Positions 1-16,140 of a stretch of 64,000 nt of DNA are shown here, piece by piece; position 1 is the first letter of the stretch; each line of letters opens with the position of its first letter. The DNA lies in the IMG/VR virus record IMGVR_UViG_3300035180_001680; one strand, written 5' to 3'. Origin of the DNA: a virus (Duplodnaviria > Caudoviricetes). The notes below the pieces were generated by a model. That model was not told the origin of the DNA. It searched no databases and saw nothing but the letters and a program-made list of their open reading frames with translations. The position numbers were made by a program, and so were the translations under genes.

Positions 1-548
1 GCTTCAGGAAATCTTCCTTTGATGACAGAACGAGCATAATATGAAGCCCACTGTGGATCTCTTGCAATAGCAGGTTCTCCTTCAGTCCATCTTCCTTTGA
101 TGACATCACTAGCATACCAATAAGCCCAACGTGGATCTTTTGCAATAACAGATTCTGCTTCAGGAAATCTTCCTTTGATGACATCACGAGCATAATATGA
201 AGCCCACTCTGGATGTTTTGCAATAACAGATTCTGCTTCAGGAAATCTTCCTTTGATGACTTGTTGAGCATACACATAAGCCCAATCTGCTTTTTTTGCA
301 ATAACAGGTTCTGCTTCAGTAAATCTTCTTTCGATGACTTGTTGAGCATACCTATAAGCCCACCGTGGATCTTTTGCAACAACAGACTCTGCTTCTTTTT
401 TCTGTTGTGCATTTAATTTTCCACTCTTTAATGCTTCAAAAGCCATCTCAGGCGTGGCCATGTGTTTTTTATCATATCCATGCAATTTTTCTGGGTTTGA
501 ATGATATTTGTATAAATCCATTGCTTCGAATAGATCACGCAATTTCAT
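1..548 (-). CDS. 26-aa repeat protein, array member, 3' end outside window
   Basis: ATG at 548 overlaps the TGA of 545..1165; manual translation gives the MKLRDLFEAM leader and repeats, with no stop before base 1. Confidence 0.92.
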   Translation of the reverse strand, partial: MKLRDLFEAMDLYKYHSNPEKLHGYDKKHMATPEMAFEALKSGKLNAQQKKEAESVVAKDPRWAYRYAQQVIERRFTEAEPVIAKKADWAYVYAQQVIKGRFPEAESVIAKHPEWASYYARDVIKGRFPEAESVIAKDPRWAYWYASDVIKGRWTEGEPAIARDPQWASYYARSVIKGRFPE

Positions 549-1165
549 TTCGAAAGTCCTTTAATAAATTCGTTGTATTTTTTAGCCCACTCTGGATTTT
601 TTGCAATAGCAGGTTCTGCTTCAGGCCATCTTCCTTTGATGACATCACGAGCATACCAATAAGCATACTGTGGATCTTTTGCAATAGCAGGTTCTCCTTC
701 AGGCCATCTTCCTTTGATGCTATCATCAGCATACTCATAAGCCCATTCTGGATCTTTTGCAATAGCAGGTTCTGCTTCAGGCCATCTTCCTTTGATGACA
801 TTATGAGCATAATATGTGGCCCACTCTGGATGTTTTGCAATAACAGGTTCTGCTTTAGGCCATCTTCCTTCAATGATATCATCAGCATACCAATAAGCCC
901 ACTGTGGGTTTTTTGCAATAACAGGTTCTGCCTCAGGCCATCTTCCTTGGATGATAGAACGAGCATACCAACAAGCAAACTTTGGATCTGTTGCAACAAC
1001 AGACTCTGCTTCTTTTTTCTGTTGCGCATTCAGTTTTCCACTCTCTAGTGCCTGATATGCCATCTCAGGCGTAGCCATGTGCTTTTTATCATATCCATGT
1101 AACTTCTCTGGATTTGAGTGGTATTTGTATAAATCCATCGCTTCGAATAAGTCACGTAGTTTCAT
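545..1165 (-). CDS. 26-aa repeat protein, 206 aa, 5 repeats
   Basis: ORF track; shared leader, repeats and cap. Confidence 0.93.
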   Translation of the reverse strand: MKLRDLFEAMDLYKYHSNPEKLHGYDKKHMATPEMAYQALESGKLNAQQKKEAESVVATDPKFACWYARSIIQGRWPEAEPVIAKNPQWAYWYADDIIEGRWPKAEPVIAKHPEWATYYAHNVIKGRWPEAEPAIAKDPEWAYEYADDSIKGRWPEGEPAIAKDPQYAYWYARDVIKGRWPEAEPAIAKNPEWAKKYNEFIKGLSK

Positions 1166-1782
1166 TTTGAAAGTCCTTTGATGAATTCGTTGTATTTTTT
1201 AGCCCACTTTGGATCTTTTGCAATAACAGGTTCTCCTTCAGGCCATCTTCCTTTGATGACATAACGAGCATACTCATAAGCCCAACCTGGATCTTTTGCA
1301 ATAACAGGTTCTGCTTCAGTCCATCTTCCTTTGATGACATAACGAGCATACCAATAAGCCCACCTTGGGTCTTTTACAATAGCAGGTTCTGCCTTAGGCC
1401 ATCTTCCTTGGATGATAGAGCGAGCATATTCATAAGCCCAATCTGCTTTTTTTGCAATAACAGGTTCTGCTTCAGGCCATCTTCCTTTGATGACTTGTTG
1501 AGCATACACACAAGCCCAATCTGCTTTTTTTGCAATAACAGGTTCTGCTTCAGGAAATCTTCTTTCGATGACTTGTTGGGCGTACTCATAAGCCCACCGT
1601 GGATCTGTTGCAACAACAGATTCTGCTTCTTTCTTTTGTTGTGCATTTAATTTTCCACTCTTTAGTGCCTCATAAGCCATCTCAGGAGTAGCCATGTGTT
1701 TTTTATCATATCCATGTAACTTCTCTGGATTTGAATGATATTTGTATAAATCCATTGCTTCGAATAGATCACGTAATTTCAT
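1162..1782 (-). CDS. 26-aa repeat protein, 206 aa, 5 repeats
   Basis: ORF track; shared leader, repeats and cap. Confidence 0.93.
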   Translation of the reverse strand: MKLRDLFEAMDLYKYHSNPEKLHGYDKKHMATPEMAYEALKSGKLNAQQKKEAESVVATDPRWAYEYAQQVIERRFPEAEPVIAKKADWACVYAQQVIKGRWPEAEPVIAKKADWAYEYARSIIQGRWPKAEPAIVKDPRWAYWYARYVIKGRWTEAEPVIAKDPGWAYEYARYVIKGRWPEGEPVIAKDPKWAKKYNEFIKGLSK

Positions 1783-2399
1783 TTTGAAAGTCCTTTGATG
1801 TCTTGTTTATACCGTTTAGCATATGTTGGGTCTTTTGCAATAGCAGGTTCTCCTTCAATCCATCTTCCTTTGATGACATCACTAGCATACCAATAAGCCC
1901 AACGTGGATCTTTTGCAATAACAGATTCTGCTTCAGGAAATCTTCCTTTGATGACATCGCGAGCATACAACCAAGCCCATTCTGGATCTTTTACAATAAC
2001 AGATTCTGCTTCAGGAAATCTTCCTTTAATGACATCATGAGCGTACATATAAGCCGTCCGTGGATTTTTTGCAATAACAGATTCTGCTTCAGGAAATCTT
2101 CCTTTGATGAAATCACGAGCATACAAAAAAGCCCATTCTGGATCTTTTGCAATAACAGATTCTGCTTCAGGCCATCTTCCTTTGATGATATCATCAACAT
2201 ACCTATAAGCCCAACGTGGATCTTTTGCGATAACAGACTCTGCTTCTTTTTTCTGTTGTGCATTTAATTTTCCACCTTTTAATGCTCCAAAAGCCATCTC
2301 AGGCGTAGCCATGTGTTTTTTATCAAACCCATGCAATTTTTCTGGGTTTGAATGATATTTGTATAAATTCATCGCTTCGAATAAGTCGCGTAGTTTCAT
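1779..2399 (-). CDS. 26-aa repeat protein, 206 aa, 5 repeats
   Basis: ORF track; shared leader, repeats and cap. Confidence 0.93.
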   Translation of the reverse strand: MKLRDLFEAMNLYKYHSNPEKLHGFDKKHMATPEMAFGALKGGKLNAQQKKEAESVIAKDPRWAYRYVDDIIKGRWPEAESVIAKDPEWAFLYARDFIKGRFPEAESVIAKNPRTAYMYAHDVIKGRFPEAESVIVKDPEWAWLYARDVIKGRFPEAESVIAKDPRWAYWYASDVIKGRWIEGEPAIAKDPTYAKRYKQDIKGLSK

Positions 2400-3094
2400 T
2401 TCGAAAGTCCTTTGATGAATTCGTTGTATTTTTTAGCCCACCTTGGATCTTTTACAATAGCAGGTTCTCCTTTAGGAAATCTTCCGTTGATGACATCATG
2501 AGCATACCAATAAGCCGTCCGTGGATTTTTTGCAACAGCAGGTTCTCCCTTAGGAAATCTTTCCTCGATGACATCACGAGCATACCAATAAGCATACTCT
2601 GGATCTTTTGCAATAACAGGTTCTGCTTCAGGCCATCTTCCTTTGATGACATTACGAACATACTCATAAGCCCATTCTGGATCTTTTGCAATAACAGGTT
2701 CCGCTTTAGGCCACCTTCCCTTAATGACATCATGAGCATACCAATAAGCATACTCTGGATCTTTTGCAATAACAGGTTCCGCTTTAGGCCACCTTCCCTT
2801 AATGACATCATGAGCATACCAATAAGCATACTCTGGATCTTTTGTAATAACAGGTTCCGCTTTAGGAAATCTTCCTTCAATGACATCACGAGCATACCAA
2901 TAAGCCCACTTTATATCTGTTGCAACAACAGATTCTGCTTCTTTTTTCTGTGGTGTATTTAATTTTCCACTCTTTAGTGCCTCATATGCCATCTGTGGAG
3001 TAGCCATGTGCTTTTTATCATATCCATGCAATTTCTCTGGATTCGAGTGATATTTGTATAAATCCATCGCTTCGAATAGATCACGTAGTTTCAT
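2396..3094 (-). CDS. 26-aa repeat protein, 232 aa, 6 repeats
   Basis: ORF track; contains an exact 78-nt tandem duplication near 2700-2855. Confidence 0.93.
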   Translation of the reverse strand: MKLRDLFEAMDLYKYHSNPEKLHGYDKKHMATPQMAYEALKSGKLNTPQKKEAESVVATDIKWAYWYARDVIEGRFPKAEPVITKDPEYAYWYAHDVIKGRWPKAEPVIAKDPEYAYWYAHDVIKGRWPKAEPVIAKDPEWAYEYVRNVIKGRWPEAEPVIAKDPEYAYWYARDVIEERFPKGEPAVAKNPRTAYWYAHDVINGRFPKGEPAIVKDPRWAKKYNEFIKGLSK

Positions 3095-3789
3095 TTTGAA
3101 AGTTCTTTGATGTATTGTTTATAATATTTAGCATACTCTGGATCTTTTGCAATAACAGATTCTCCTTTAGGAAATCTTTCTTTGATGACATCATGAGCGT
3201 ACATATAAGCCGTCCGTGGATTTTTTGCAATAGCAGGTTCTCCTTCAGGCCATCTTCCTTTGATGACATCACGAGCATACCAAAAAGCATAATCTGGATC
3301 TTTTGCAATGACAGATTCTCCTTTAGGAAATCTTTCTTTAATGATATAACGAGCATACTCATAAGCCCAATCTGCTTTTTTTGCAACAGCAGGTTCTCCT
3401 TTAGGAAATCTTTCTTTGATGATATCATGAGCGTACATATAAGCCATCCGTGGATCTTTTGCAATAACAGATTCTGCTTCAGGAAATCTTCCTTTGATGA
3501 AATCACGAGCATACAAAAAAGCCCATTCTGGATCTTTTGCAATAGCAGGTTCTCCTTTAGGAAATCTTTCTTTGATGACATTACTGACATACCAATAAGC
3601 CCACTTTGTATCTGTTGCAACAACAGACTCTGCTTCTTTTTTCTGTTGTGCATTTAGTTTTCCACTCTTTAGTGCCTCATATGCCATCTCAGGCGTAGCC
3701 ATGTGCTTTTTATCATATCCATGCAATTTCTCTGGATTTGAGTGGTATTTGTATAAGTTCATCGCTTCGAATAAGTCACGTAATTTCAT
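3091..3789 (-). CDS. 26-aa repeat protein, 232 aa, 6 repeats
   Basis: ORF track; ends KELSK instead of KGLSK/KGISK. Confidence 0.93.
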   Translation of the reverse strand: MKLRDLFEAMNLYKYHSNPEKLHGYDKKHMATPEMAYEALKSGKLNAQQKKEAESVVATDTKWAYWYVSNVIKERFPKGEPAIAKDPEWAFLYARDFIKGRFPEAESVIAKDPRMAYMYAHDIIKERFPKGEPAVAKKADWAYEYARYIIKERFPKGESVIAKDPDYAFWYARDVIKGRWPEGEPAIAKNPRTAYMYAHDVIKERFPKGESVIAKDPEYAKYYKQYIKELSK

Positions 3790-4484
3790 TTTGAAAGTCC
3801 TTTGATGAATTCTTTGTAATTTTTAGCCAGGTGTGGATCTTTTGCAATGACAGATTCTGCTTCAGGAAATCTTTCCTTGATGACATCACGAGCATACCCA
3901 TAAGCATAATCTGGATCTTTTGCAATAGCAGGTTCTCCTTTGGGAAATCTTTCTTTAATGACATCACGAGCATAACTATAAGCCCACCGTGGATCTTTTG
4001 CAATAACAGGTTCTGCTTCAGGAAATCTTCCTTTGATGACAGAATGAGCATACCAATAAGCATACTCTGGATCTTTTGCAATAACAGGTTCTCCTTTAGG
4101 AAATCTTCCTTTGATGACATCACGAGCATAATATGAAGCCCACCGTGGATCTTTTGCAATAACAGACTCTGCTTCAGGAAAGCTTCCTTTGATGACATCA
4201 CGAGCATAATATGAAGCAAACTTTGGATCTGTTGCAACAACAGGTTCTCCTTCAGGAAATCTTCCTTTGATGACATCACGAGCATAATATGAAGCAAACT
4301 TTGGATCTGTTGCAACAACAGATTCTGCTTCTTTCTTTTGTTGTGCATTCAGTTTTCCACTCTCTAGTGCCTCATAGGCCATCTCAGGAGTAGCCATGTG
4401 TTTTTTATCATATCCATGTAACTTCTCTGGATTCGAGTGGTATTTGTATAAATCCATTGCTTCGAGTAGATCACGCAATTTCAT
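3786..4484 (-). CDS. 26-aa repeat protein, 232 aa, 6 repeats
   Basis: ORF track; LLEAM leader variant. Confidence 0.93.
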   Translation of the reverse strand: MKLRDLLEAMDLYKYHSNPEKLHGYDKKHMATPEMAYEALESGKLNAQQKKEAESVVATDPKFASYYARDVIKGRFPEGEPVVATDPKFASYYARDVIKGSFPEAESVIAKDPRWASYYARDVIKGRFPKGEPVIAKDPEYAYWYAHSVIKGRFPEAEPVIAKDPRWAYSYARDVIKERFPKGEPAIAKDPDYAYGYARDVIKERFPEAESVIAKDPHLAKNYKEFIKGLSK

Positions 4485-5179
4485 TTTGAAATTCCTTTAA
4501 TAAATTCTTTGTATTTTTTGGTCCATTCTGAATCTTTTGCAATAATAGGTTCTGCTTCAGGAAATCTTCCTTTGATGACATAACGAGCATACCAATAAGC
4601 CCAACCTGAATCTTTTGCAATAATAGGTTCTGCTTCAGGAAATCTTCCTTTGATGACATTACGAGCATACCAATAAGCCCACTGTGGGTTTTTTGCAATA
4701 ACCGGTTCTGCTTCAGACCATCTTCCTTTAGTGACATCACGAGCATAATCATAAGCCCATTTTGGATGTTTTGCAATAGCAGGTTCTGCTTCAGGCCATC
4801 TTCCTTTGATGACATCACGAGCGTACGTATAAGCCGACCGTGGATCTTTTGCAATGACAGATTCTCCTTTAGGAAATCTTTCTTTGATGACATTACAAGC
4901 ATACCAATAAGCCCATTCAGGATCTTTTGCAATAACAGGTTCTGCCTTAGGCCATCTTCCTTGGATGACATCACGAGCATAATATGAAGCAAACTCTGGA
5001 TCTGTTACAACAACAGATTCTGCTTCTTTCTTTTGTTGTGCATTTAATTTTCCACTCTTTAGTGCCTCATAAGCCATCTCAGGCGTAGCCATGTGTTTTT
5101 TATCAAACCCATGCAATTTTTCTGGGTTTGAATGATATTTGTATAAATCCATTGCTTCGAGTAGATCACGCAATTTCAT
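4481..5179 (-). CDS. 26-aa repeat protein, 232 aa, 6 repeats
   Basis: ORF track; LLEAM leader variant. Confidence 0.93.
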   Translation of the reverse strand: MKLRDLLEAMDLYKYHSNPEKLHGFDKKHMATPEMAYEALKSGKLNAQQKKEAESVVVTDPEFASYYARDVIQGRWPKAEPVIAKDPEWAYWYACNVIKERFPKGESVIAKDPRSAYTYARDVIKGRWPEAEPAIAKHPKWAYDYARDVTKGRWSEAEPVIAKNPQWAYWYARNVIKGRFPEAEPIIAKDSGWAYWYARYVIKGRFPEAEPIIAKDSEWTKKYKEFIKGISK

Positions 5180-5718
5180 TTTGAAATTCCTTTAATAAAT
5201 TCTTTGTATTTTTTGGTCCATTTTGGATGTTTTGCAATAGCAGGTTCTGCTTCAGGAAATCTTCCTTTGATGACAGAACGAGCATACCAACAAGCCCATT
5301 CTGGATCTTTTGCAATAGCAGGTTCTCCTTTAGGAAATCTTTCTTTGATGACACTACAAGCATACCAATAAGCCCATTCAGGATCTTTTGCAATAGCAGG
5401 TTCTCCTTTAGGAAATCTTCCTTTGATGACATCACGAGCATAACTATAAGCCCACTGTGGATCTGTTGCAATAACAGGTTCTGCCTTAGGCCATCTTCTT
5501 TGGATGACAGAACGAGCATACCAATAAGCAAACTCTGGATCTGTTACAATAACAGATTCTGCTTCTTTCTTTTGTTGTGCATTCAGTTTTCCGCTCTCTA
5601 GTGCCTGATATGCCATCTGTGGAGTAGCCATGTGCTTTTTATCAAACCCATGCAATTTCTCTGGATTCGAGTGATATTTGTATAAATCCATTGCTTCGAG
5701 TAAGTCACGTAATTTCAT
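5176..5718 (-). CDS. 26-aa repeat protein, 180 aa, 4 repeats (shortest)
   Basis: ORF track; LLEAM leader variant. Confidence 0.93.
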   Translation of the reverse strand: MKLRDLLEAMDLYKYHSNPEKLHGFDKKHMATPQMAYQALESGKLNAQQKKEAESVIVTDPEFAYWYARSVIQRRWPKAEPVIATDPQWAYSYARDVIKGRFPKGEPAIAKDPEWAYWYACSVIKERFPKGEPAIAKDPEWACWYARSVIKGRFPEAEPAIAKHPKWTKKYKEFIKGISK

Positions 5719-6335
5719 TTCGAAAGTCCTTTGATGAATTCGTTGTAATTTTTAGCCAGGTGTGGATCTTTTGCAATAGCAGATTCTGCTTCAGGAAATC
5801 TTCCTTTAATGACATAACGAGCATACGTATAAGCCCACTGTGGATCTTTTGCAATGACAGATTCTCCTTTAGGAAATCTTTCTTTGATGACTTGTTGAGC
5901 ATACACATAAGCCCAATCTGCTTTTTTTGCAATAGCAGGTTCTCCTTTAGGAAACCTTCCTTCGATAACATTACGAGCATACAAACAAGCCCACTCTGGA
6001 TCTTTTGCAATGACAGATTCTCCTTTAGGAAATCTTTCTCCAATGACATCTATAGCATACTCATAAGCCAACTCTGGATCTTTTGCAATAATAGGTTCTC
6101 CTTTAGGAAACCTTCCTTTGATGACATTACGAGCATACTCATAAGCAAACTTTGGATCTGTTGCAACAACAGATTCTGCTTCTTTTTTCTGTGGTACATT
6201 TAATTTTCCACTCTTTAGTGCCTCATAGGCCATCTCAGGAGTAGCCATGTGCTTTTTATCATATCCATGTAACTTCTCTGGATTTGAATGATATTTGTAT
6301 AAATCCATCGCTTCGAATAGATCACGTAATTTCAT
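5715..6335 (-). CDS. 26-aa repeat protein, 206 aa, 5 repeats
   Basis: ORF track; shared leader, repeats and cap. Confidence 0.93.
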   Translation of the reverse strand: MKLRDLFEAMDLYKYHSNPEKLHGYDKKHMATPEMAYEALKSGKLNVPQKKEAESVVATDPKFAYEYARNVIKGRFPKGEPIIAKDPELAYEYAIDVIGERFPKGESVIAKDPEWACLYARNVIEGRFPKGEPAIAKKADWAYVYAQQVIKERFPKGESVIAKDPQWAYTYARYVIKGRFPEAESAIAKDPHLAKNYNEFIKGLSK

Positions 6336-6952
6336 TTTGAAAGTCCTTTGATGAATTCGTTGTATGGCTTAGCCCACTGTGGATCTTTTGCAATAACAGG
6401 TTCTGCTTCAGGCCATCTTCCTTTGATGACATGACGAGCATACCAATAAGCCCAACCTGGATCTTTTGCAATAACAGGTTCTGCTTCAGGCCATCTTCCC
6501 CTGATGACATCACGAGCATACGGACAAGCCCGCGTTGGATCTGTTGCAATAGCAGGTTCTCCTTTAGGAAATCTTCCTTTGATGATATCATCAGCATAAT
6601 TATAAGCCCAACGTGGATCTTTTGCAATAACAGGTTCTGCTTCAGGAAATCTTTCTTTGATGACATCACGAGCATACAAAAAAGCCCATTCTGGATCTTT
6701 TGCAATAGCAGGTTCTCCTTTAGGAAATCTTTCTTTGATGACATTACAAGCATACCAATAAGCCCACTGTGGGTTTTTTGCAACAACAGACTCTGCTTCT
6801 TTTTTCTGTTGTGCGTTTAATTTTCCATCTTTTAATGCTCCACAAGCCATCTCAGGCGTAGCTATGTGCTTTTTATCATATCCAGGTAACGTCTCTGGAT
6901 TCGAGTGATATTTGTATAAATCCATCGCTTCGAATAGATCACGTAATTTCAT
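6332..6952 (-). CDS. 26-aa repeat protein, 206 aa, 5 repeats
   Basis: ORF track; PETLPGYDKKHI leader variant. Confidence 0.93.
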   Translation of the reverse strand: MKLRDLFEAMDLYKYHSNPETLPGYDKKHIATPEMACGALKDGKLNAQQKKEAESVVAKNPQWAYWYACNVIKERFPKGEPAIAKDPEWAFLYARDVIKERFPEAEPVIAKDPRWAYNYADDIIKGRFPKGEPAIATDPTRACPYARDVIRGRWPEAEPVIAKDPGWAYWYARHVIKGRWPEAEPVIAKDPQWAKPYNEFIKGLSK

Positions 6953-7645
6953 TTTGAAAGTCCTTTGATGAATTCGTTGTATTTTTTAGCCCATCTTAGA
7001 TCTTTTACAATAGCAGGTTCTCCTTCAGGCCATCTTCCTTCGATGAAATCACGAGCATACCAATAAGCATACTGTGGGTTTTTTGCAATAGCCGGTTCTC
7101 CTTCAGGCCATTTTCCTTTGATGATATCATCAACATATATAAGCCCAATTTGCTTTTTTTGCAATAACAGATTCTGCTTCAGGAAATCTTCCTTTGATGA
7201 CATTATAAGCATACTCATAAGCCCACCGTGGATCTTTTGCAATAGCAGGTTCTCCTTCAGGCCATCTTCCTTTAATGAAATCGCGAGCATAATTATAAGC
7301 CCAATGTGGATCTTTTGCAATAACAGGTTCTACTTCAGGCCATCTTCCTTTGATGACATAACGAGCATACCAATAAGCCCATTCTGGATCTTTTGCAATA
7401 ACAGATTCTGCTTTAGGCCATCTTCCTTTAATGACATAATGAGCATACTCATAAGCCCATTCTGGATCTTTTGCAACAACAGATTCTGCTTCTTTTTTCT
7501 GTTGTGCATTCAGTTTTCCACTCTTTAGTGCCTCATATGCCATCTGTGGAGTAGCCATGTGTTTTTTATCATATCCATGTAACTTCTCTGGATTCGAGTG
7601 GTATTTGTATAAATCCATTGCTTCGAATAGATCACGTAGTTTCAT
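6949..7645 (-). pseudogene. Frameshifted array member (6 repeats; 2-nt deletion near 7135-7141)
   Basis: Unit is 697 nt versus 699 nt for intact 6-repeat genes; 7130..7645 stops at ...WAYIC*, and the other frame continues YVDDIIKGKWP...KGLSK to 6949. Confidence 0.85.
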
Positions 7646-8262
7646 TTCGAAAGTCCTTTGATGTCTTGTTTATACCGTTTAGCATATGTTGGATCTTTTG
7701 CAATAACAGGTTCTGCTTCAGGAAATCTTCCTTTGATGACATCACGAGCATACCCATAAGCAAACTCTGGATCTTTTGCAATAACAGGTTCTGCTTTAGG
7801 CCATCTTCCTTTGATGACATCATGAGTATACCAATAAGCCGACTTTGGATATTTTGCAATAACAGATTCTGCTTCAGAAAATCTTCCTTTGATGACATCA
7901 CGAGCATAATATGAAGCCCAACCTGGATCTTTTGCAATAACAGGTTCTGCTTCAGGCCATCTTCCTTTGATGACATCACGAGCATACAAACAAGCCCACT
8001 GTGGATTTTTTGCAATAGCAGGTTCTCCTTTAGGAAATCTTCTTTCGGTGACATCACGAGCATAATAATGAGCCAACTCTGGAACTTTTGCAATAACAGA
8101 CTCTGCTTCTTTTTTCTGTTGTGCGTTTAATTTTCCACTCTTTAGTGCCTCATAGGCCATCTCAGGAGAAACCATGTGCCTTTTATCATATCCATGTAAC
8201 TTCTCTGGATTTGAGTGGTATTTGTATAAATTCATTGCTTCGAATAAGTCACGTAGTTTCAT
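7642..8262 (-). CDS. 26-aa repeat protein, 206 aa, 5 repeats
   Basis: ORF track; shared leader, repeats and cap. Confidence 0.93.
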   Translation of the reverse strand: MKLRDLFEAMNLYKYHSNPEKLHGYDKRHMVSPEMAYEALKSGKLNAQQKKEAESVIAKVPELAHYYARDVTERRFPKGEPAIAKNPQWACLYARDVIKGRWPEAEPVIAKDPGWASYYARDVIKGRFSEAESVIAKYPKSAYWYTHDVIKGRWPKAEPVIAKDPEFAYGYARDVIKGRFPEAEPVIAKDPTYAKRYKQDIKGLSK

Positions 8263-8879
8263 TTCGAAAGTCCTTTAATAAATTCGTTGTAATTTTTAGT
8301 CGACTGTAGGTTTTTTGCAATAGCAGGTTCTCCTTCAGGCCATCTTCCTTTGATGACATGACGAGCATAATATGAAGCCCACCGTGGAGCTTTTGCAATA
8401 GCAGGTTCTCCTTCAGGCCATCTTCCTTTGATGACATCACGAGCATACCCATAAGCATACTCTGGGTGTTTTGCAATGACAGATTCTCCTTTAGGAAATC
8501 TTTCTTCGATGACATAACGAGCATAATATGAAGCCCATTGTGGATCTTTTGCAATAGCAGGTTCTCCTTCAGGCCATCTTCCTTTAATGACACCATGAGC
8601 ATACCAATAAGCATACTCTGGGTGTTTTGCAATGATAGATTCTCCTTTAGGAAATCTTTCTTTGATGACTCGTTGAGCATACTCATAAGCCCACTGTGGA
8701 TCTGTTGCAACAACAGACTCTGCTTCTTTTTTCTGTTGTGCATTCAGTTTTCCACTCTCTAGTGCCTCATAAGCCATCTCAGGAGTAGCCATGTGCTTTT
8801 TATCAAACCCATGCAATTTTTCTGGGTTTGAATGATATTTGTATAAATCCATTGCTTCGAATAAGTCACGTAATTTCAT
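8259..8879 (-). CDS. 26-aa repeat protein, 206 aa, 5 repeats
   Basis: ORF track; shared leader, repeats and cap. Confidence 0.93.
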   Translation of the reverse strand: MKLRDLFEAMDLYKYHSNPEKLHGFDKKHMATPEMAYEALESGKLNAQQKKEAESVVATDPQWAYEYAQRVIKERFPKGESIIAKHPEYAYWYAHGVIKGRWPEGEPAIAKDPQWASYYARYVIEERFPKGESVIAKHPEYAYGYARDVIKGRWPEGEPAIAKAPRWASYYARHVIKGRWPEGEPAIAKNLQSTKNYNEFIKGLSK

Positions 8880-9730
8880 TTTGAAATTCCTTTAATAAAT
8901 TCGTTGTATTTTTTAGCCCACTTTGGATGTTTTGCAATAACAGATTCTGCTTCAGGAAATCTTCCCCTGATGACATTATGAGCATACCAATAAGCCCAAC
9001 GTGGATCTTTTGCAATAACAGGTTCTGCTTCAGGCCATCTTCCTTTAATGAAATCACGAGCATACGTATAAGCCCAATCTGCTTTTTTTGCAATAGCAGG
9101 TTCTGCTTCAGGCCATCTTCCTTTGATGACATCACGAGCATACAAAAAAGCCCGTTCTGGATCTTTTGCAATAGCAGGTTCTCCTTTAGGAAATCTTTCT
9201 TTGATGACAAAATGAGCGTAATATGAAGCCCACTGTGGATCTGTTGCAATAGCAGGTTCTCCTTTAGGCCATCTTCCTTTAATGACATCACGAGCATAAC
9301 TATAAGCATACCCTGGAACTTTTGCAATAGCAGGTTCTGCTTCAGGCCATCTTTCTTTGATGACATCACGAGCGTACCAATAAGCCGACTCTGGAACTTT
9401 TGCAAAGACAGATTCTCCTTCAGGCCATCTTCCTTTGATGACATCACGAGCATACCAATAAGCCAACTCTAGATCTTTTGCAATAACAGGTTCTCCTTTA
9501 GGAAACCTTCCTTTGATGAAATCACGAGCGTACTCATAAGCCCATCTTGGATCTTTTGCAACAACAGATTCTGCTTCTTTTTTCTGTTGTGCATTTAATT
9601 TTCCACCTTTTAATGCTTCAAAAGCCATCTCAGGAGTAGCCATGTGTTTTTTATCAAACCCATGCAATTTCTCTGGATTCGAGTGATATTTGTATAAATC
9701 CATTGCTTCGAATAAGTCACGTAGTTTCAT
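8876..9730 (-). CDS. 26-aa repeat protein, 284 aa, 8 repeats
   Basis: ORF track; shared leader, repeats and cap. Confidence 0.93.
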   Translation of the reverse strand: MKLRDLFEAMDLYKYHSNPEKLHGFDKKHMATPEMAFEALKGGKLNAQQKKEAESVVAKDPRWAYEYARDFIKGRFPKGEPVIAKDLELAYWYARDVIKGRWPEGESVFAKVPESAYWYARDVIKERWPEAEPAIAKVPGYAYSYARDVIKGRWPKGEPAIATDPQWASYYAHFVIKERFPKGEPAIAKDPERAFLYARDVIKGRWPEAEPAIAKKADWAYTYARDFIKGRWPEAEPVIAKDPRWAYWYAHNVIRGRFPEAESVIAKHPKWAKKYNEFIKGISK

Positions 9731-10815
9731 TTCGAAAGTCCTTTGATGAATTCGTTGTATTTTTTAGTCCATCTTGGATCTTTTGCAATAACAGATTCTG
9801 CTTCAGGCCATCTTCCTTTAATGACATGACGAGCATACCAATAAGCATACTCTGGATGTTTTACAATAGCAGGTTCTCCTTCAGACCATCTTCCTTTGAT
9901 GACATAACGAGCATACTCATAAGCCCACCGTGGGTTTTTTGCAATAACAGGTTCTCCTTCAGGCCATCTTCCTTTGATGACATAATGAGCATACACACAA
10001 GCCCACTGTGGATCTTTTGCAATAACAGGTTCTCCTTTAGGAAACCTTCCTTTGATGACATTGAGAGCATACTCATAAGCCAACTCTGGATCTTTTGCAA
10101 TAACAGGTTCTCCTTTAGGAAACCTTCCTTTGATGACATTGAGAGCATACGCATAAGCCCAATATGCTTTTTTTGCAATAGCAGGTTCTCCTTCAGGCCA
10201 TCTTCCTTTAATGAAATCACGAGCATACATATAAGCCCAACCTGGATCTTTTGCAATAACATGTTCTACTTCAGGCCATCTTCCTTTGATGACATAACGA
10301 GCATACTCACAAGCCCAATGTGGATCTTTTGCAATAGCAGGTTCTCCTTTAGGAAACCTTCCTTTAATGAAATCATGAGCATACGTATAAGCCCAATCTG
10401 CTTTTTTTGCAATAGCGGGTTCTCCTTCAGGCCATCTTCCTTTGATGAAATTACGAGCATACGCATAAGCCCACTTTGGATCTTTTGCAATAACAGGTTC
10501 TCCTTTAGTAAACCTTCCTTTGATGACATCTGTAGCATACTCATAAGCCAACTCTGGAACTTTTGCAATGACAGATTCTGCTTTAGGCCATCTTCCTTTG
10601 ATGACATTACGAGCATACCTATAAGCCCACGTTGTATCTGTTGCAACAACAGATTCTGCTTCTTTCTTTTGTTGTGCATTTAATTTTCCACTCTTTAGTG
10701 CCTCATAGGCCATCTCAGGAGTAGCCATGTGTTTTTTATCAAACCCATGCAATTTTTCTGGATTCGAGTGGTATTTGTATAAATCCATTGCTTCGAATAA
10801 GTCACGTAGTTTCAT
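9727..10815 (-). CDS. 26-aa repeat protein, 362 aa, 11 repeats (longest)
   Basis: ORF track; shared leader, repeats and cap. Confidence 0.93.
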   Translation of the reverse strand: MKLRDLFEAMDLYKYHSNPEKLHGFDKKHMATPEMAYEALKSGKLNAQQKKEAESVVATDTTWAYRYARNVIKGRWPKAESVIAKVPELAYEYATDVIKGRFTKGEPVIAKDPKWAYAYARNFIKGRWPEGEPAIAKKADWAYTYAHDFIKGRFPKGEPAIAKDPHWACEYARYVIKGRWPEVEHVIAKDPGWAYMYARDFIKGRWPEGEPAIAKKAYWAYAYALNVIKGRFPKGEPVIAKDPELAYEYALNVIKGRFPKGEPVIAKDPQWACVYAHYVIKGRWPEGEPVIAKNPRWAYEYARYVIKGRWSEGEPAIVKHPEYAYWYARHVIKGRWPEAESVIAKDPRWTKKYNEFIKGLSK

Positions 10816-11585
10816 TTCGAAAGTCCTTTGATGAATTCGTTGTATTTTTTAGCCCACTGTGGATCTTTTGCAATAGCAGGTTCTCCTTCAGGCCATCTTC
10901 CTTTGATGACATCACGAACATACAAAAAAGCCAACTCTGGATTTTTTGCAATAACAGGTTCTGCTTCATGCCATCTTCCTTTGATGACATAACGAGCATA
11001 CGCATAAGCATACTCTGGAACTTTTGCAATAGCAGGTTCTCCTTTAGGAAACCTTCCTTTGATAACATTATGAGCATACAAATAAGCCAACTCTGGATCT
11101 TTTGCAAAGACATATTCTCCTTTAGGAAATCTTTCTTTAATGACATCTTCAGCATACTCATAAGCCCACTGTGGATTTTTTGCAATAGCAGGTTCTCCTT
11201 CAGGCCATCTTCCTTTGATGACACCACGAGCATACCAATAAGCATACTTTGGATCTTTTGCAATAGCAGGTTCTCCTTCAGGCCATCTTCCTTTGATGAC
11301 ATAATGATACTCATAAGCCCACTTTGGATCTTTTGCAATAACAGGTTCTGCTTCAGGCCATCTTCCTTTGATGACATTACAAGCATACTCATAAGCCCAC
11401 CGTGGATCTGTTGCAACAACAGATTCTGCTTCTTTCTTTTGTTGTGCATTCAGTTTTCCACTCTCTAGTGCCCCATAGGCCATCTCAGGCGTAGCCATGT
11501 GTTTTTTATCATATCCATGCAATTTTTCTGGATTTGAGTGGTATTTGTATAAATCCATTGCTTCAAATAAGTCACGTAATTTCAT
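10812..11585 (-). CDS. 26-aa repeat protein, 257 aa, 7 repeats (one lacks a codon)
   Basis: ORF track; AYEY-HYVIKG lacks the conserved Ala (3-nt deletion at about 11306/11307). Confidence 0.92.
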   Translation of the reverse strand: MKLRDLFEAMDLYKYHSNPEKLHGYDKKHMATPEMAYGALESGKLNAQQKKEAESVVATDPRWAYEYACNVIKGRWPEAEPVIAKDPKWAYEYHYVIKGRWPEGEPAIAKDPKYAYWYARGVIKGRWPEGEPAIAKNPQWAYEYAEDVIKERFPKGEYVFAKDPELAYLYAHNVIKGRFPKGEPAIAKVPEYAYAYARYVIKGRWHEAEPVIAKNPELAFLYVRDVIKGRWPEGEPAIAKDPQWAKKYNEFIKGLSK

Positions 11586-12358
11586 TTTGAAATTCCTTTG
11601 ATGAATTGGTTATACTGTTTAGCATATGTTGGGTCTTTTGCAATAACAGGTTCTGCTTCAGGAAATCTTCCTTTGATGACATCACGAGCATACTCATAAG
11701 CCCACCGTGGATCTTTTGCAATAGCAGGTTCTCCTTCAGGCCATCTTCCTTTAATGACAGAACGAGCATAGTATAAAGCCCAATCTGCTTTTTTTGCAAT
11801 AACAGGTTCTCCTTCAGACCATCTTCCTTTGATGACATCACGAGCATAACCATAAGCCCAATCTGGATCTTTTGCAATAGCAGGTTCTCCTTTAGGCCAT
11901 CTTCCTTTGATGATATTACGAGCATACTCATAAGCCCACTGTGGACCTGTTGCAATAGCAGGTTCTCCTTTAGGCCATCTTCCTTTGATGACATCACGAG
12001 CATACCAATAAGCCAACCGTGGATCTTTTGCAATAACAGGTTCTGCTTCAGGCCATCTTCCTTTGATGGCATCGCGAGCATACCAATAAGCCAACTCTGG
12101 ATCTTTTGCAATAACAGGTTCTGCTTCAGGCCATCTTCTTTTGATGACAGAACGAGCATACCAATGAGCATACTCTGGATCTGTTACAATAACAGATTCT
12201 GCTTCTTTCTTTTGTTGTGCGTTTAATTTTCTACTCTTTAGTGCTTTAAAAGCCATCTCAGGCGTAGCCATGTGCTTTTTATCAAACCCATGCAATTTTT
12301 CTGGGTTTGAATGATATTTGTATAAATCCATCGCTTCGAATAAGTCACGTAGTTTCAT
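11582..12358 (-). CDS. 26-aa repeat protein, 258 aa, 7 repeats
   Basis: ORF track; shared leader, repeats and cap. Confidence 0.93.
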   Translation of the reverse strand: MKLRDLFEAMDLYKYHSNPEKLHGFDKKHMATPEMAFKALKSRKLNAQQKKEAESVIVTDPEYAHWYARSVIKRRWPEAEPVIAKDPELAYWYARDAIKGRWPEAEPVIAKDPRLAYWYARDVIKGRWPKGEPAIATGPQWAYEYARNIIKGRWPKGEPAIAKDPDWAYGYARDVIKGRWSEGEPVIAKKADWALYYARSVIKGRWPEGEPAIAKDPRWAYEYARDVIKGRFPEAEPVIAKDPTYAKQYNQFIKGISK

Positions 12359-13209
12359 TTTGAAATTCCTTTGATGTATTGTTTATAATATTTAGCATAC
12401 TCTGGATGTTTTGCAATAACAGGTTCTCCTTCAGGAAATCTTCCTTTGATGACATCACGAGCATACCAATAAGCATACTCTGGATGTTTTGCAATAACAG
12501 GTTCTCCTTCAGGAAATCTTCCTTTGATGACATCACGAGCATACCAATATGCTGACCCTGACTCTTTTGCAATAGCAGGTTCTCCTTCAGTCCATCTTCC
12601 TTTAATTACAGAACGAGCATAATGTAAAGCCCACCGTGGATCTTTTGCAATAGCAGGTTCTGCTCCAGGCCATCTTCCTTTGATGACATAACAAGCATAC
12701 TCATAAGCCCACTCTAGATCTTTTACAATAGCAGGTTCTCCTTCAGGCCATCTTCCTTCGACGACATCGTGAGCGTACATATAAGCCATCCGTGGATCTT
12801 TTGCAATAACAGGTTCTGCTTTAGGCCATCTTCCCTTGATGACATCACGAGCATAAATATAAGCCCACTTTGGATCTTTTGCAATAACAGGTTCTGTTTT
12901 AGGCCATCTTCCTTTGATGACATAACGAGCATACCTATAAGCCCACTCTGGAACTTTTGCAAAGACAGATTCTCCTTCAGGCCATCTTCCTTTGATGACA
13001 TCACGAGCATAAATGTAAACCAACTCTGGATCTGTTGCAACAACAGATTCTGCTTCTTTTCTCTGTTGTGCGTTTAATTTTCCACCTTTTAATGCTTCAA
13101 AAGCCATCTCAGGAGTAGCCATGTGTTTTTTATCAAACCCATGCAATTTTTTTGGATTCGAGTGATATTTGTATAAATCCATTGCTTCGAATAAGTCGCG
13201 TAGTTTCAT
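12355..13209 (-). CDS. 26-aa repeat protein, 284 aa, 8 repeats
   Basis: ORF track; shared leader, repeats and cap. Confidence 0.93.
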   Translation of the reverse strand: MKLRDLFEAMDLYKYHSNPKKLHGFDKKHMATPEMAFEALKGGKLNAQQRKEAESVVATDPELVYIYARDVIKGRWPEGESVFAKVPEWAYRYARYVIKGRWPKTEPVIAKDPKWAYIYARDVIKGRWPKAEPVIAKDPRMAYMYAHDVVEGRWPEGEPAIVKDLEWAYEYACYVIKGRWPGAEPAIAKDPRWALHYARSVIKGRWTEGEPAIAKESGSAYWYARDVIKGRFPEGEPVIAKHPEYAYWYARDVIKGRFPEGEPVIAKHPEYAKYYKQYIKGISK

Positions 13210-13904
13210 TTCGAAAGTCCTTTGATGAATTCGTTGTATTTGTTAGCCCATTCTGGATCTTTTGCAATAGCAGGTTCTCCTTCAGGCCATCTTCCTTTAA
13301 TGACATGACGAGCATACACATAAGCCCACTTTGGATCTTTTGCAATAGCAGGTTCTGCTTCAGGAAATCTTTCTTTAATGACATAATAAGCATAATATGA
13401 AGCCGACTGTAGATCTTTTACAATAGCAGGTTCTCCTTCAGGCCATCTTCCTTTAATGACATGACGAGCATACAACCAAGCCCATTCTGGATCTTTTGCA
13501 ATAACAGGTTCTGCTTTAGTCCATCTTCCTTTAATGACATGATGAGCATACCAACAAGCCCACTCTGGATCTTTTGCAATAACAGGTTCTGCTTTAGGCC
13601 ATCTTCCTTTGATGACATAACGAGCATAACTATAAGCCCACTCTGAATCTTCTGCAATAACAGGTTCTACTTTAGGCCATCTTCCTTTGATGACATAACG
13701 AGCATACCTATAAGCCCATCGTGGATCTGTTGCAATAACAGACTCCGCTTCTTTTTTCTGTTGTGCGTTTAGTTTTCCACTCTTTAGTGCCTCATAGGCC
13801 ATCTCAAGAGTAATTATGTGCTTTTTATCATATCCAGGTAACGTCTCTGGATTCGAGTGATATTTGTATAAGTCCATTGCTTCAAATAAGTCACGTAATT
13901 TCAT
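13206..13904 (-). CDS. 26-aa repeat protein, 232 aa, 6 repeats
   Basis: ORF track; PETLPGYDKKHI leader variant. Confidence 0.93.
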   Translation of the reverse strand: MKLRDLFEAMDLYKYHSNPETLPGYDKKHIITLEMAYEALKSGKLNAQQKKEAESVIATDPRWAYRYARYVIKGRWPKVEPVIAEDSEWAYSYARYVIKGRWPKAEPVIAKDPEWACWYAHHVIKGRWTKAEPVIAKDPEWAWLYARHVIKGRWPEGEPAIVKDLQSASYYAYYVIKERFPEAEPAIAKDPKWAYVYARHVIKGRWPEGEPAIAKDPEWANKYNEFIKGLSK

Positions 13905-14521
13905 TTTGAAAGTCCTTTAATAAATTCGTTGTATTTGTTAGCCCACTGTGGATCTTTTGCAATAGCAGGTTCTCCTTTAGGAAACCTTCCTTTGATGACA
14001 TGACGAGCATACGCATAAGCCCAATATGCTTTTTTTGCAATAGCAGGTTCTGCTTCAGGCCATCTTCCTTTAATGACATAACGAGCATACCCACAAGCAT
14101 ACTCTGGATCTTTTGCAATAGCAGGTTCTCCTTTAGGAAACCTTCCTTTGATGACATTGAGAGCATACGCATAAGCCCAATATGCTTTTTTTGCAATAGC
14201 AGGTTCTGCTTCAGGCCATCTTCCTTTGATGACATCACGAGCATACGCATGAACCCACAGTAGATCTTTTGCAATAACAGGTTCCGCTTTAGGCCATCTT
14301 CCCTTAATGACATAATGAGCATACCAATAAGCCCACTGTGGATCTGTTGCAACAACAGACTCTGCTTCTTTTTTCTGTTGTGCGTTTAATTTTCCACCTT
14401 TTAATGCTCTAAAAGCCATCTCAGGCGTAGCTATGTGTTTTTTATCATATCCATGTAACTTCTCTGGGTTTGAATGATATTTGTATAAATCCATTGCTTC
14501 GAATAAGTCGCGCAATTTCAT
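13901..14521 (-). CDS. 26-aa repeat protein, 206 aa, 5 repeats (first gene of array)
   Basis: ORF track; starts 6 nt after the stop of 14528..16108. Confidence 0.93.
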   Translation of the reverse strand: MKLRDLFEAMDLYKYHSNPEKLHGYDKKHIATPEMAFRALKGGKLNAQQKKEAESVVATDPQWAYWYAHYVIKGRWPKAEPVIAKDLLWVHAYARDVIKGRWPEAEPAIAKKAYWAYAYALNVIKGRFPKGEPAIAKDPEYACGYARYVIKGRWPEAEPAIAKKAYWAYAYARHVIKGRFPKGEPAIAKDPQWANKYNEFIKGLSK

Positions 14522-16132: not shown

Positions 16133-16140
16133 TATTTATA
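16133..16140 (-). promoter_or_regulatory. T4-type late promoter TATAAATA heading the 526-aa gene and the array
   Basis: Exact TATAAATA on the minus strand, 24 nt upstream of the ATG at 16108; same motif precedes capsid and tail genes; gp55 homolog in window. Confidence 0.75.

What the first reader, a model, noticed from the sequence alone, without database searches (positions are those of the whole stretch)
1..14521. Array of >=21 paralogous 26-aa-repeat protein genes: candidate diversified effector/binder system
Seen: at least 14.5 kb holds 20 complete units plus one partial; each has a 57-aa leader, n x 26-aa repeats (n = 4, 5, 6, 7, 8 or 11; 121 repeats in total) and a 19-aa cap. No two copies are identical, 19 of 20 complete units are intact, and the array continues past the left edge. 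Knowledge: phage genomes are compact, so long paralog arrays usually reflect diversifying selection in host conflicts (for example the polymorphic T4 ip1 locus). Inference: a repertoire of same-scaffold, different-specificity proteins, such as anti-defence binders, host-protein sponges or receptor variants. I do not recognise a characterised family.
Basis: partly seen in the sequence, partly recalled or inferred. Interest (0 to 1): 0.95.

Follow-up and report, generated by a model that had tools for sequence, protein, structure and literature searches.

The report
Phage array of diversified solenoid binders
A large T4-like phage devotes at least 14.5 kb to about two dozen back-to-back genes for small helical-repeat proteins that share a rigid scaffold but differ at a few surface positions, which looks like a natural binder library that works with one constant partner protein encoded just upstream.

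Summary
On the minus strand, 3-14521 holds 19 intact genes, one frameshifted gene and one partial gene. Each has a 57-aa leader, 4-11 repeats of 26 aa (121 in all) and a 19-aa cap.

The array is real and under selection. Its sequences occur in four metagenomes at the depth of the flanks. In the leader, nearly all differences are silent (pN/pS 0.10). In the repeats they are mostly amino-acid changes (about 1.4), concentrated at positions 5, 6, 8, 9, 12 and 13 on one helix face. Segments are shuffled between paralogs.

The fold is an alpha-solenoid (pLDDT 90). The family is phage-specific, unnamed and large (5194 clusters).

New here: the array is one operon behind a T4-type late promoter motif and a PcfJ-like protein. 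In most relatives that domain is fused to the same repeats. In several loci a stand-alone copy sits beside leader-type arrays. A PA5oct homologue is a virion protein.

Best reading: interchangeable recognition subunits for a constant, possibly virion-borne partner. Targets are unknown.

Earlier scan notes describe comparable phage arrays on other DNA (e1-1940937, e1-3506089).

The parts
3..548 (-). partial unit (leader + 4 repeats + 21 aa), runs off the left edge
545..1165 (-). paralog, 206 aa, 5 repeats
1162..1782 (-). paralog, 206 aa, 5 repeats
1779..2399 (-). paralog, 206 aa, 5 repeats
2396..3094 (-). paralog, 232 aa, 6 repeats
3091..3789 (-). paralog, 232 aa, 6 repeats
3786..4484 (-). paralog, 232 aa, 6 repeats
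4481..5179 (-). paralog, 232 aa, 6 repeats
5176..5718 (-). paralog, 180 aa, 4 repeats
5715..6335 (-). paralog, 206 aa, 5 repeats
6332..6952 (-). paralog, 206 aa, 5 repeats
6949..7645 (-). frameshifted unit (6 repeats); 2 nt lost in a TATATAT run near 7135
   Evidence: a run X1 contig covers 7014-7184 without difference
7642..8262 (-). paralog, 206 aa, 5 repeats
8259..8879 (-). paralog, 206 aa, 5 repeats
8876..9730 (-). paralog, 284 aa, 8 repeats
9727..10815 (-). longest paralog, 362 aa, 11 repeats
10812..11585 (-). paralog, 257 aa, 7 repeats, one of them a residue short
11582..12358 (-). paralog, 258 aa, 7 repeats
12355..13209 (-). paralog, 284 aa, 8 repeats
13206..13904 (-). paralog, 232 aa, 6 repeats
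13901..14521 (-). first gene of the array, 206 aa, 5 repeats; folded as an alpha-solenoid, pLDDT 89.8
14528..16108 (-). P0121, 526 aa. Residues 266-526 form a PcfJ-like 'GTKWCT' domain followed by a cap-like C-terminus without repeats. Its stop codon lies 6 nt before the array.
16133..16140 (-). TATAAATA, the T4-type late-promoter motif, 24 nt before the P0121 start codon
16171..16200 (-). sigma-70-like promoter match (TTCACA, 18 nt, TATTAT, with TG)
   Evidence: a consensus match only
38686..39321 (+). gp21-type prohead protease (Peptidase_S77), the candidate enzyme for the L-F-E|A site in each leader (inferred)

Best explanation
The array is a genuine polycistronic operon of a jumbo T4-like (XacN1-related) myophage. 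It encodes a repertoire of small, basic alpha-solenoid proteins built on one scaffold.

Shown:
- Each gene ends in ...AAAGGAnTTTCnAAATGA. The cap codons therefore carry the ribosome-binding site, and the stop overlaps the next start, which couples translation along the array.
- Leader and caps are held constant at the protein level. Six positions on one face of helix A of every repeat (5, 6, 8, 9, 12, 13; rich in Tyr, Trp, Arg, Asp) are diversified.
- Segments are shuffled among paralogs and repeat slots.

Inferred:
- The proteins are recognition modules, not effectors by themselves.
- They act with the PcfJ-like protein P0121 encoded at the head of the operon. The conserved leader stands in for the covalent link seen in relatives, where this domain and these repeats form one polypeptide.
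- One constant subunit could thus be paired with any of about 27 specificities.

More tentative:
- The operon is expressed late.
- The proteins are virion-associated and are delivered to, or act early in, the next host.
- There they bind variable host proteins, for counter-defence or takeover.
For: Scaffold and diversification:
- Column entropies and codon tables.
- Nei-Gojobori values: leader pS 0.41 and pN 0.043; repeats pS 0.13 and pN 0.19, the same within genes and between genes.
- 87 distinct residue combinations at positions 5/9/12/13 among 108 repeats.
- The distance matrices of leader, cap, first repeat and last repeat are uncorrelated (rho about 0.1). Exact 60-88-nt blocks are shared at different repeat slots.

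Fold: AlphaFold2 pLDDT 89.8, with helix pairs every 26 residues.

Operon:
- ATGA overlaps and an AAAGGA site before every start codon.
- No minus-strand terminator-like site and no TATAAATA inside the array.

Link to the PcfJ-like domain:
- phrog_28193 matches both P0121 and the repeat proteins.
- Fused relatives P0157 and P0161.
- 24 of 43 PcfJ-core ORFs in fetched loci are fused to these repeats, and none carries the leader.
- Stand-alone cores lie within 3 kb of leader-type arrays in L014, L062, L044/L045, L009, L034, L035, L039 and L070.
- The same N-domain is fused elsewhere to LRR, ankyrin, LRV, DUF4116 and WG repeats.
- Complex prediction of P0121(266-526) with a paralog (1-109): score 0.54, best control 0.19. 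This is weak support. The runs agree in at least 0% of their contacts and partner pLDDT is at least 72. The mark was reached by 58 of 80 solved complexes and 2 of 110 mismatched pairs, and passes at 0.60 or under are weak.

Late or virion link:
- TATAAATA lies 24 nt before P0121. 7 of the 12 copies in the window lie 21-31 nt before start codons, including the gp22-like scaffold gene.
- P0121 is 34% identical (E 3e-25) to PA5oct EST35_0205, annotated 'structural protein, ESI-MS/MS' (93 virion proteins by mass spectrometry in PMC7318152).
Against: - No target, no expression data (no RNA run was listed) and no proteomics for this phage.
- The predicted complex is only weak support, with no reproducible interface.
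- The function of the PcfJ-like domain is unknown. Its candidate His is not conserved (21 of 36), so no catalytic triad is evident.
- Two loci with adequate flanks (L049, L010) have leader-type genes but no PcfJ core within 3 kb.
- The pN/pS values come from shuffled, non-orthologous repeats. They indicate diversifying selection but are not a formal site test.
- The late-promoter call is a motif match. A sigma-70-like match lies upstream as well.
Confidence: 0.55

Rival explanations
1. Head-internal, ejected proteins of the T4 IP type. This overlaps with the best explanation. The first 8 residues (MKLRDLFE) would be a capsid-targeting propeptide, cut after Glu by the gp21-type protease. The mature basic solenoids would be packed with the DNA and injected as first-strike binders, with or without P0121.
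For: - The leader has L-F-E|A at residues 6-9. T4 IPII and IPIII begin MKTYQEFIAE|A, read from the T4 record.
- gp21 cuts after Glu in L/I-X-E (PMC9026906). T4 targeting propeptides are 10-20 residues long (PMC5694885).
- The window has a Peptidase_S77 protease.
- The close relatives P0017 and P0034 start MKLHE|M and MKLSE|M.
- In fused polyprotein relatives, 33 of 36 unit junctions have E-[ATSG] just before the leader motif, and 20 of 36 fit [LIVM]-x-E-[ATSG].
- Late-promoter motif, pI about 9, and a virion homologue of the partner.
Against: - Most single-unit relatives start directly at the M-(D/N)-L-Y motif, with no propeptide.
- The similarity to the T4 tag is 4 of 10 residues. L-x-E tripeptides are common by chance.
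- Many polyprotein junctions have Thr at P3.
- There are no virion data for any repeat protein.
Confidence: 0.3
2. Modular nucleic-acid readers of the TALE, PUF or PPR kind. Each 26-aa repeat would read one base through positions 12/13 (and 5/9), so each paralog would recognise a different 4-11-nt site in host or phage DNA or RNA.
For: - Repeats are nearly identical at silent sites, with hypervariable residues at 12/13, as in TALE repeats.
- The proteins are basic, pI 8.7-9.6 for all but one.
- Aromatic residues lie on the variable face.
Against: - The partner N-domain is fused in other viruses to LRR, ankyrin and WG repeats, which typically bind proteins or ligands.
- 24 different 12/13 pairs and 87 four-residue combinations are far more states than a four-letter code needs.
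- The only DNA-binding label (HTH_35) is a partial, cumulative match.
- No fold match to TALE, PUF or PPR proteins.
Confidence: 0.07
3. Exposed virion components, such as fibre, whisker or decoration adaptors, that widen host range by binding different cell-surface structures.
For: - Late-promoter motif.
- The PA5oct homologue of the partner is a virion protein encoded beside the terminase and head genes.
- A weak match of the repeat to a PHROG called 'virion structural protein'.
Against: - The operon lies beside the DNA polymerase, not in the tail or fibre module of the window.
- The proteins have no signal, no trimerisation motif and no fibre-like domain.
- I know of no described alpha-solenoid receptor-binding protein (own knowledge).
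Confidence: 0.1
4. No repertoire function: a recombination-driven expansion drifting neutrally, or a mis-assembled repeat region.
For: - One unit is frameshifted.
- Short-read contigs break up inside the array, and a few alternative joints appear in runs X2-X4.
Against: - 19 of 20 complete units are intact, over 13.4 kb of open frame.
- Leader pN/pS is 0.10.
- Unique sequences are present at flank depth in independent samples.
- The family is large and conserved: 5194 clusters.
Confidence: 0.04

Closest known systems
PcfJ-like-domain proteins of phages fused to repeat domains, e.g. Pseudomonas phage PA5oct EST35_0205 (virion protein by ESI-MS/MS)
   Same: P0121 residues 266-526 share the 'GTxWCT ... 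LY ... KxQFH ... MDxxD' domain: 34% identity, E 3e-25 by tblastn, and Foldseek E 5e-15. Most relatives of the array proteins carry this domain at the N-terminus of the same 26-aa repeats.
   Different: Here the domain and the repeats are separate genes, one domain gene against about 27 repeat genes, and the repeats have a dedicated leader. The function of the domain is unknown. The relation to Pfam PcfJ (PF14284) is only remote.
T4 internal proteins IPI, IPII and IPIII and the polymorphic ip loci
   Same: Both are small proteins of a T4-type phage. Both show N-terminal MK...E|A resembling the capsid-targeting propeptide and the gp21 site. The setting is an arms race: IPI blocks a restriction enzyme (PMC9026906). 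A late-promoter motif is present.
   Different: There is no sequence or fold relation beyond the first 10 residues. T4 has three unrelated IPs, not a 27-member family on one scaffold. Packaging is unproven here.
Multigene families of ankyrin, F-box (PRANC) and similar repeat proteins in poxviruses and giant viruses
   Same: A constant adaptor domain is combined with a diversified repeat domain, expanded into many paralogs. The same N-domain is found on an ankyrin-repeat protein of a metagenomic Marseillevirus.
   Different: The host domain differs (bacteria), the repeat type differs (26-aa helix pair), and adaptor and repeat are split into separate genes in one operon.
LRV (PF01816), DUF4116 (PF13475) and HEAT-like alpha-solenoids, and engineered binder libraries built on such scaffolds (alphaRep, DARPin)
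   Same: Short helix-turn-helix repeats stack into a solenoid. Weak Foldseek matches to LRV, HEAT and DUF4116 entries. Variability is confined to one helix face, with Tyr, Trp, Arg, Asp and Ser enriched, as in synthetic libraries (the comparison with synthetic libraries is own knowledge).
   Different: No Pfam model matches at E up to 1. No solved structure matches. The library is natural and encoded as separate genes.
TALE repeat arrays
   Same: Near-identical repeats at the nucleotide level, with hypervariable residues 12 and 13.
   Different: 26-aa rather than 34-aa repeats. Six variable positions and far more residue combinations. No evidence of nucleic-acid binding.

Membership tests
Pfam HTH_35 (PF13693), the label that automatic pipelines give to relatives | a match over the whole 75-position winged-helix profile that passes the domain threshold | tested here: not met
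   Only profile positions 32-50 match, no stretch passes on its own, and the 37.9 bits are summed over repeats. Only 11-28% of members of related Atlas clusters carry the label.
LRV / DUF4116 / HEAT repeat families | sequence match to the Pfam repeat models | tested here: not met
   None is listed at E up to 1 for the 362-aa and 206-aa proteins.
LRV / DUF4116 / HEAT repeat families | alpha-solenoid fold of short helix pairs | tested here: inconclusive
   The model is a confident helix-pair solenoid. Matches to named LRV, HEAT and DUF4116 entries are weak: E 4e-3 to 0.3, TM 0.25-0.64. No PDB match at E below 0.1.
PcfJ-like protein (PF14284), for the upstream gene P0121 | match to the Pfam model | tested here: not met
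   P0121 has no hit at E up to 10. Only 2 of 36 relatives match, best E 0.014.
PcfJ-like protein (PF14284), for the upstream gene P0121 | shared fold with annotated PcfJ-like proteins | tested here: inconclusive
   Foldseek against entries named PcfJ-like gives E 6e-4 to 1.6e-2 in AFDB and about 1.4e-3 to 8.4e-2 in BFVD, with TM 0.2-0.3. Atlas feature hits include clusters in which a third of members carry PF14284.
T4-type internal (ejected) head proteins | N-terminal 10-20-residue targeting propeptide ending at a gp21 site (L/I-X-E) | tested here: inconclusive
   MKLRDLFE|A is invariant or nearly so in all paralogs and fits L-x-E. Most wider relatives lack the propeptide.
T4-type internal (ejected) head proteins | presence in the mature head and processing by the prohead protease | not testable with these tools
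   There is no cultured phage and no proteome. The protease gene is present.
Diversity-generating retroelement (DGR) targets | variation confined to sites that are adenine in a template repeat | tested here: not met
   Variable codons change at first and second positions from consensus GAT, TGG, GAG, CGT and TAT to many alternatives, with no adenine specificity. The window was not searched exhaustively for a reverse transcriptase.
Known anti-phage defence or curated prokaryotic families | match to PADLOC or NCBIfam models | tested here: not met
   No hit at E up to 0.01.

The most novel reading that the evidence does not exclude
A split, combinatorial targeting system in a phage. One constant PcfJ-like subunit, carried in or made with the virion, docks through a conserved leader peptide onto any of about 27 genome-encoded solenoid adaptors. 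The recognition faces of these adaptors are kept diverse by selection and cassette shuffling. This would give the phage an anticipatory repertoire against variable host proteins such as defence systems. The same unit also exists as 16-unit polyproteins in another jumbo phage, which implies proteolytic release of binders.
Probability: 0.25. Interest if true: 0.9.

Novelty: new variant of a known kind. Interest (0 to 1): 0.78.

Why it matters
Viruses of eukaryotes are known to expand repeat-protein families to meet host variation. In phages, arrays of this size are hardly described.

This case has several features of interest:
- An uncharacterised, phage-specific repeat family with thousands of members reaches its extreme form: about 18 kb, several per cent of a jumbo genome.
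- It shows a textbook signature of a conserved scaffold with diversified contact sites.
- It is tied by gene fusion and gene order to a second uncharacterised viral domain, PcfJ-like, which is a virion protein in a cultured phage.

That gives a concrete, testable handle on two large families of unknown function. It also offers a natural library of small, stable binders whose design rules can be read from 121 repeats.

Tried and rejected
- Megablast of the flank and tblastn of a paralog against 50,697 phage records found nothing.
- Pfam matches to Tachylectin, FF, CdsD and Complex1_51K, and a PDB match to an antibody VH framework (...YYADSVKGRFT), are short chance or cumulative matches.
- The profile of the N-domain matched designer PPR proteins only through a short helical stretch. 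I rejected it.
- VIA-align gave GNAT-like matches to the beta-rich half of the PcfJ-like domain at Z 5-6, below the level that means more than a common arrangement. A Cys-His-Asp triad was considered and dropped because the His is only 21 of 36 conserved.
- No other ORF of the window starts with a similar tag.
- No whole genome is held for the window, and the 323-kb relative could not be searched whole.
- No RNA run was listed.
- The N-terminal 265 residues of P0121 gave no usable Atlas hit.
- The complex prediction gave only weak support. It is reported as such.

Full report
**1. The observation**

On the minus strand of 3-14521 the window carries a head-to-tail series of genes. There are 19 intact complete units, one complete unit with a frameshift (6949-7645) and one partial unit that runs off the left edge (3-548).

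Every unit is a 57-aa leader, n repeats of exactly 26 aa and a 19-aa cap. The values of n are 4, 5, 6, 7, 8 or 11, giving 121 repeats in the 20 complete units. Tandem Repeats Finder sees the 78-nt period across the whole stretch.

All 19 intact proteins differ. Same-length pairs average 73% aa identity but 84% nt identity.

The frameshifted unit has lost 2 nt in a TATATAT run. A contig of run X1 reproduces that stretch exactly.

I could not check the part outside my window.

**2. Is it an assembly artefact?**

Probably not.
- The longest exact block shared by two paralogs is 88 nt, shorter than a usual read.
- Contigs from four runs of four studies (sediment and microbial-mat metagenomes) cover the array at 95-100% identity.
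- In run X1, the bins made of unique sequence have depth 65-70 against 67 for the single-copy flank.
- A few alternative joints with short sides appear in other runs. They may be population variants or graph noise.
- The order of units still needs long reads.

**3. The genome**

The window encodes:
- a T4-type portal (36438-38204);
- a prohead protease (38686-39321, Peptidase_S77);
- a major capsid protein (40426-41775);
- a tail sheath and a large terminase;
- a family-B DNA polymerase that carries an intein.

The capsid protein is closest to the jumbo phages XacN1 (63%), Xoo-sp13, Stenotrophomonas CM1/RAS14 and Ralstonia RsoM2USA. No cultured phage matches at the DNA level.

**4. Anatomy of the operon**

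Each gene's stop overlaps the next start (ATGA). The last cap codons...ATCAAAGGAnTTTCnAAATGA, place an AAAGGA Shine-Dalgarno site 8 nt before that start. The cap therefore serves two purposes, and translation is probably coupled along the array.

The array contains no minus-strand terminator-like site and no TATAAATA.

The first gene starts 6 nt after the stop of a 526-aa gene, P0121 (14528-16108). 24 nt upstream of P0121 lies TATAAATA, the T4 late-promoter motif. The window has 12 copies against 5.7 expected, and 0 of 100 shuffles reach 12. Seven of them lie 21-31 nt before start codons, among them the gp22-like scaffold gene. A sigma-70-like match lies further upstream.

I infer one long, at least partly late, transcription unit of P0121 plus the array.

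**5. Selection**

*Variable sites.* Column entropy in the repeat is concentrated at positions 5, 9, 13, 6, 12, 3 and 8. Positions 7, 10, 11, 15, 18, 23 and 26 are nearly fixed. The variable set (5, 9, 12/13, with 6 and 8) and the fixed set (7, 10/11, 14, 18) follow i, i+4, i+7 spacing.

*Substitution rates* (Nei-Gojobori):

| Segment | pS | pN | pN/pS |
|---|---|---|---|
| Leader | 0.41 | 0.043 | 0.10 |
| Cap | 0.31 | 0.15 | 0.48 |
| Repeats within a gene | 0.130 | 0.188 | 1.45 |
| Repeats between genes | 0.136 | 0.195 | 1.43 |

Third codon positions in the repeats are almost frozen: GCA 99 of 108 at position 1, GCT 104 at position 7, CCT 98 at position 20. First and second positions vary freely at the variable codons.

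Variable sites are rich in Tyr, Trp, Arg, Asp, Glu, Ser and His. 87 different 5/9/12/13 combinations occur among 108 repeats.

*Shuffling.* The distance matrices of leader, cap, first repeat and last repeat are uncorrelated (Spearman rho -0.16 to 0.13). So are the two halves of the leader (rho 0.09). Eight of ten exact blocks of 60 nt or more in the repeat region lie at different repeat slots.

Together this means a purified scaffold, rapid turnover and shuffling of repeat cassettes, and retention of amino-acid diversity on one face. Two caveats apply: the repeats are not orthologous, and no formal site model was run.

The variation is not adenine-specific, so a diversity-generating retroelement is not the source.

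**6. Fold and family**

AlphaFold2 on an alignment of eight paralogs gives pLDDT 89.8. Helix pairs recur every 26 residues. Residues 32-57 form a degenerate first repeat (N-cap), and residues 1-30 have low confidence.

No solved structure matches. In AlphaFold DB the best matches are unnamed relatives, followed by weak HEAT, LRV and DUF4116 entries. Atlas shape matches are clusters that are 80-100% viral.

Pfam, NCBIfam and PADLOC give no true match. The HTH_35 score is a sum of 19-residue partial matches.

The family is nevertheless large: 5194 cluster representatives at E up to 1e-3 and 379 at 1e-30. More than 477 metagenome stretches were confirmed in one capped scan.

**7. The partner**

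Most relatives of 400-600 aa carry the repeats behind an N-terminal domain of about 230 residues with the motifs GTxWCT, LY, KxQFH and MDxxD (P0157, P0161).

P0121 residues 266-526 are this domain, followed directly by a cap-like end (...YPEWSKFLEKIIKDKY...) and no repeats. One PHROG profile (28193) matches P0121 with its first part and the array proteins with a later part.

The domain folds confidently (pLDDT 92.2). It matches:
- the PA5oct protein EST35_0205 (tblastn 34%, E 3e-25; Foldseek E 5e-15);
- uncultured phage proteins that carry LRR or other repeats;
- an ankyrin-repeat protein of a metagenomic Marseillevirus;
- more weakly, proteins named PcfJ-like.

Atlas structure neighbours carry DUF4116, WG, LRV, LRR or ankyrin repeats. 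A survey of diversity-generating retroelements lists a PcfJ-like motif upstream of the variable region in some target genes (PMC5758913).

The recurring theme is this constant domain plus a variable binding domain. Its own activity is unknown. Trp178, Cys179 and Tyr189 are nearly invariant, but the candidate His is not.

**8. Gene order elsewhere**

In the loci fetched, 24 of 43 ORFs with the domain core are fused to these repeats, and none of them has the leader. Stand-alone cores lie within 3 kb of leader-type genes in:
- L014 (core, then three leader genes);
- L062 (core, then three);
- L044/L045 (five leader genes, the core, then one more);
- L009, L034, L035, L039 and L070.

Of six loci with at least 1.5 kb on both sides, four show this arrangement.

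Fusion in some genomes and adjacency in others is the classical sign of a functional, often physical, link. A complex prediction of P0121(266-526) with a paralog (1-109) scored 0.54 against a best control of 0.19. This is weak support: the runs agree in at least 0% of their contacts, and partner pLDDT is at least 72. The mark was reached by 58 of 80 solved complexes and 2 of 110 mismatched pairs, but passes at 0.60 or under are more often wrong than right unless the guess was likely beforehand.

I therefore hold the docking role of the leader as likely but unproven.

**9. The leader, and a second reading of it**

The core motif M-(D/N)-L-Y-K-(L/Y)-H-S-x-P-E-x-L-x-G-Y-D is conserved far beyond this phage.

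In another jumbo phage (a 323-kb JGI contig; L009, L010) the same leader-repeat-cap unit is fused in frame into giant proteins. P0136 has 2253 aa, with 16 matched stretches in the search and 13-14 units by my own leader motif and profile. P0138 has 1464 aa. The units are joined by poly-Lys linkers.

Of 36 unit junctions in six such proteins, 33 have Glu-(Ala/Thr/Ser/Gly) immediately before the leader motif. 20 of them fit [LIVM]-x-E-[ATSG].

In this window each leader has 9 extra residues, MKLRDLFEA, giving L-F-E|A. The close relatives P0017 and P0034 begin MKLHE|M and MKLSE|M. T4 IPII and IPIII begin MKTYQEFIAE|A. gp21 cuts after Glu in L/I-X-E (PMC9026906). Such 10-20-residue propeptides target proteins into the T4 head (PMC5694885).

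Several observations point the same way:
- the late-promoter motif;
- the basic pI, 8.7-9.6 for all but one paralog;
- the protease gene in the window;
- the virion status of the PA5oct homologue, annotated from ESI-MS/MS, with 93 virion proteins reported in PMC7318152.

Together they make packaging and ejection a serious possibility, at about 0.3. It is compatible with the main model. It remains weak because most single-unit relatives lack the propeptide and the resemblance to the T4 tag is short.

That is a parallel, not evidence.

**10. Rivals**

- *A TALE- or PUF-like nucleic-acid code.* This is suggested by the hypervariable 12/13 pair and the basic charge. It is disfavoured by the number of residue states and by the protein-binding repeat types that replace these repeats on the same N-domain elsewhere.
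- *An external virion adaptor role.* This is possible but has no specific support.
- *Neutral expansion or artefact.* The selection and depth data contradict this.

**11. Verdict**

The array is real, and its scaffold-plus-diversified-face design is demonstrated at the sequence level. The family is uncharacterised and phage-specific.

This analysis adds:
- the operon structure;
- the partner domain and its fusion and adjacency pattern;
- the polyprotein relatives;
- the late and virion hints.

Function and targets are still unknown. I class it as a new variant of a known kind, namely viral multigene families of repeat-protein adaptors. It is of high interest because of its scale, its clean signature and its testability.

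Noticed in passing
window 17066-20860 (-): The family-B DNA polymerase (1264 aa) is interrupted by an intein with a LAGLIDADG homing-endonuclease domain (Intein_splicing over residues 658-995).
   Followed up: no
window 41929-43593 (+): A 554-aa HNH or homing-endonuclease-like ORF with a weak Mom-family match sits directly after the major capsid gene. A TATAAATA overlaps its annotated start.
   Followed up: no
window, 12 sites (e.g. 39424, 43610, 44008, 51614, 52307, 29682, 16133): TATAAATA is enriched (12 against 5.7 expected). Seven copies lie 21-31 nt before start codons, which suggests that this phage uses the T4-type late promoter.
   Followed up: partly
window 16372 (upstream of P0121): Contigs of three runs (X1-X3) leave the window sequence at the same point and continue with the same unrelated letters. 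This is a strain-level alternative in the intergenic region between P0121 and the DUF488 gene.
   Followed up: no
window 1601-1623, 4303-4325, 6154-6176, 11404-11426, 13028-13050 and five more: The codons for ...ESVVATD... at the junction of leader and first repeat form a perfect 10-bp-stem hairpin in about half of the paralogs. The scan flags it as terminator-like on the antisense strand. It could be a recombination or RNA-processing site, or a by-product of the codons.
   Followed up: no
L009 and L010 (JGI 3300071653, contig Ga0620611_000075, 323 kb): Another jumbo phage carries the same unit as in-frame polyproteins at two or more separate places (2253 aa, 1464 aa and a three-unit ORF), with poly-Lys linkers. 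A stand-alone PcfJ-like core gene lies just downstream of the largest one.
   Followed up: partly
protein P0146 (1061 aa, metagenome): A three-unit polyprotein of the family ends in an extra domain of about 200 aa, not identified, that contains an ...HEGRNR... motif. This shows that the units can be fused to other modules.
   Followed up: no
window 16530-16925 (-): A DUF488-N3a family protein lies between the polymerase and the P0121 operon.
   Followed up: no
L011 (PA5oct 126587-135159): The PA5oct homologue of P0121 lies between a gene that looked like a large terminase on reading its sequence (not searched) and further virion proteins confirmed by mass spectrometry, that is, inside a run of virion-protein genes.
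   Followed up: partly
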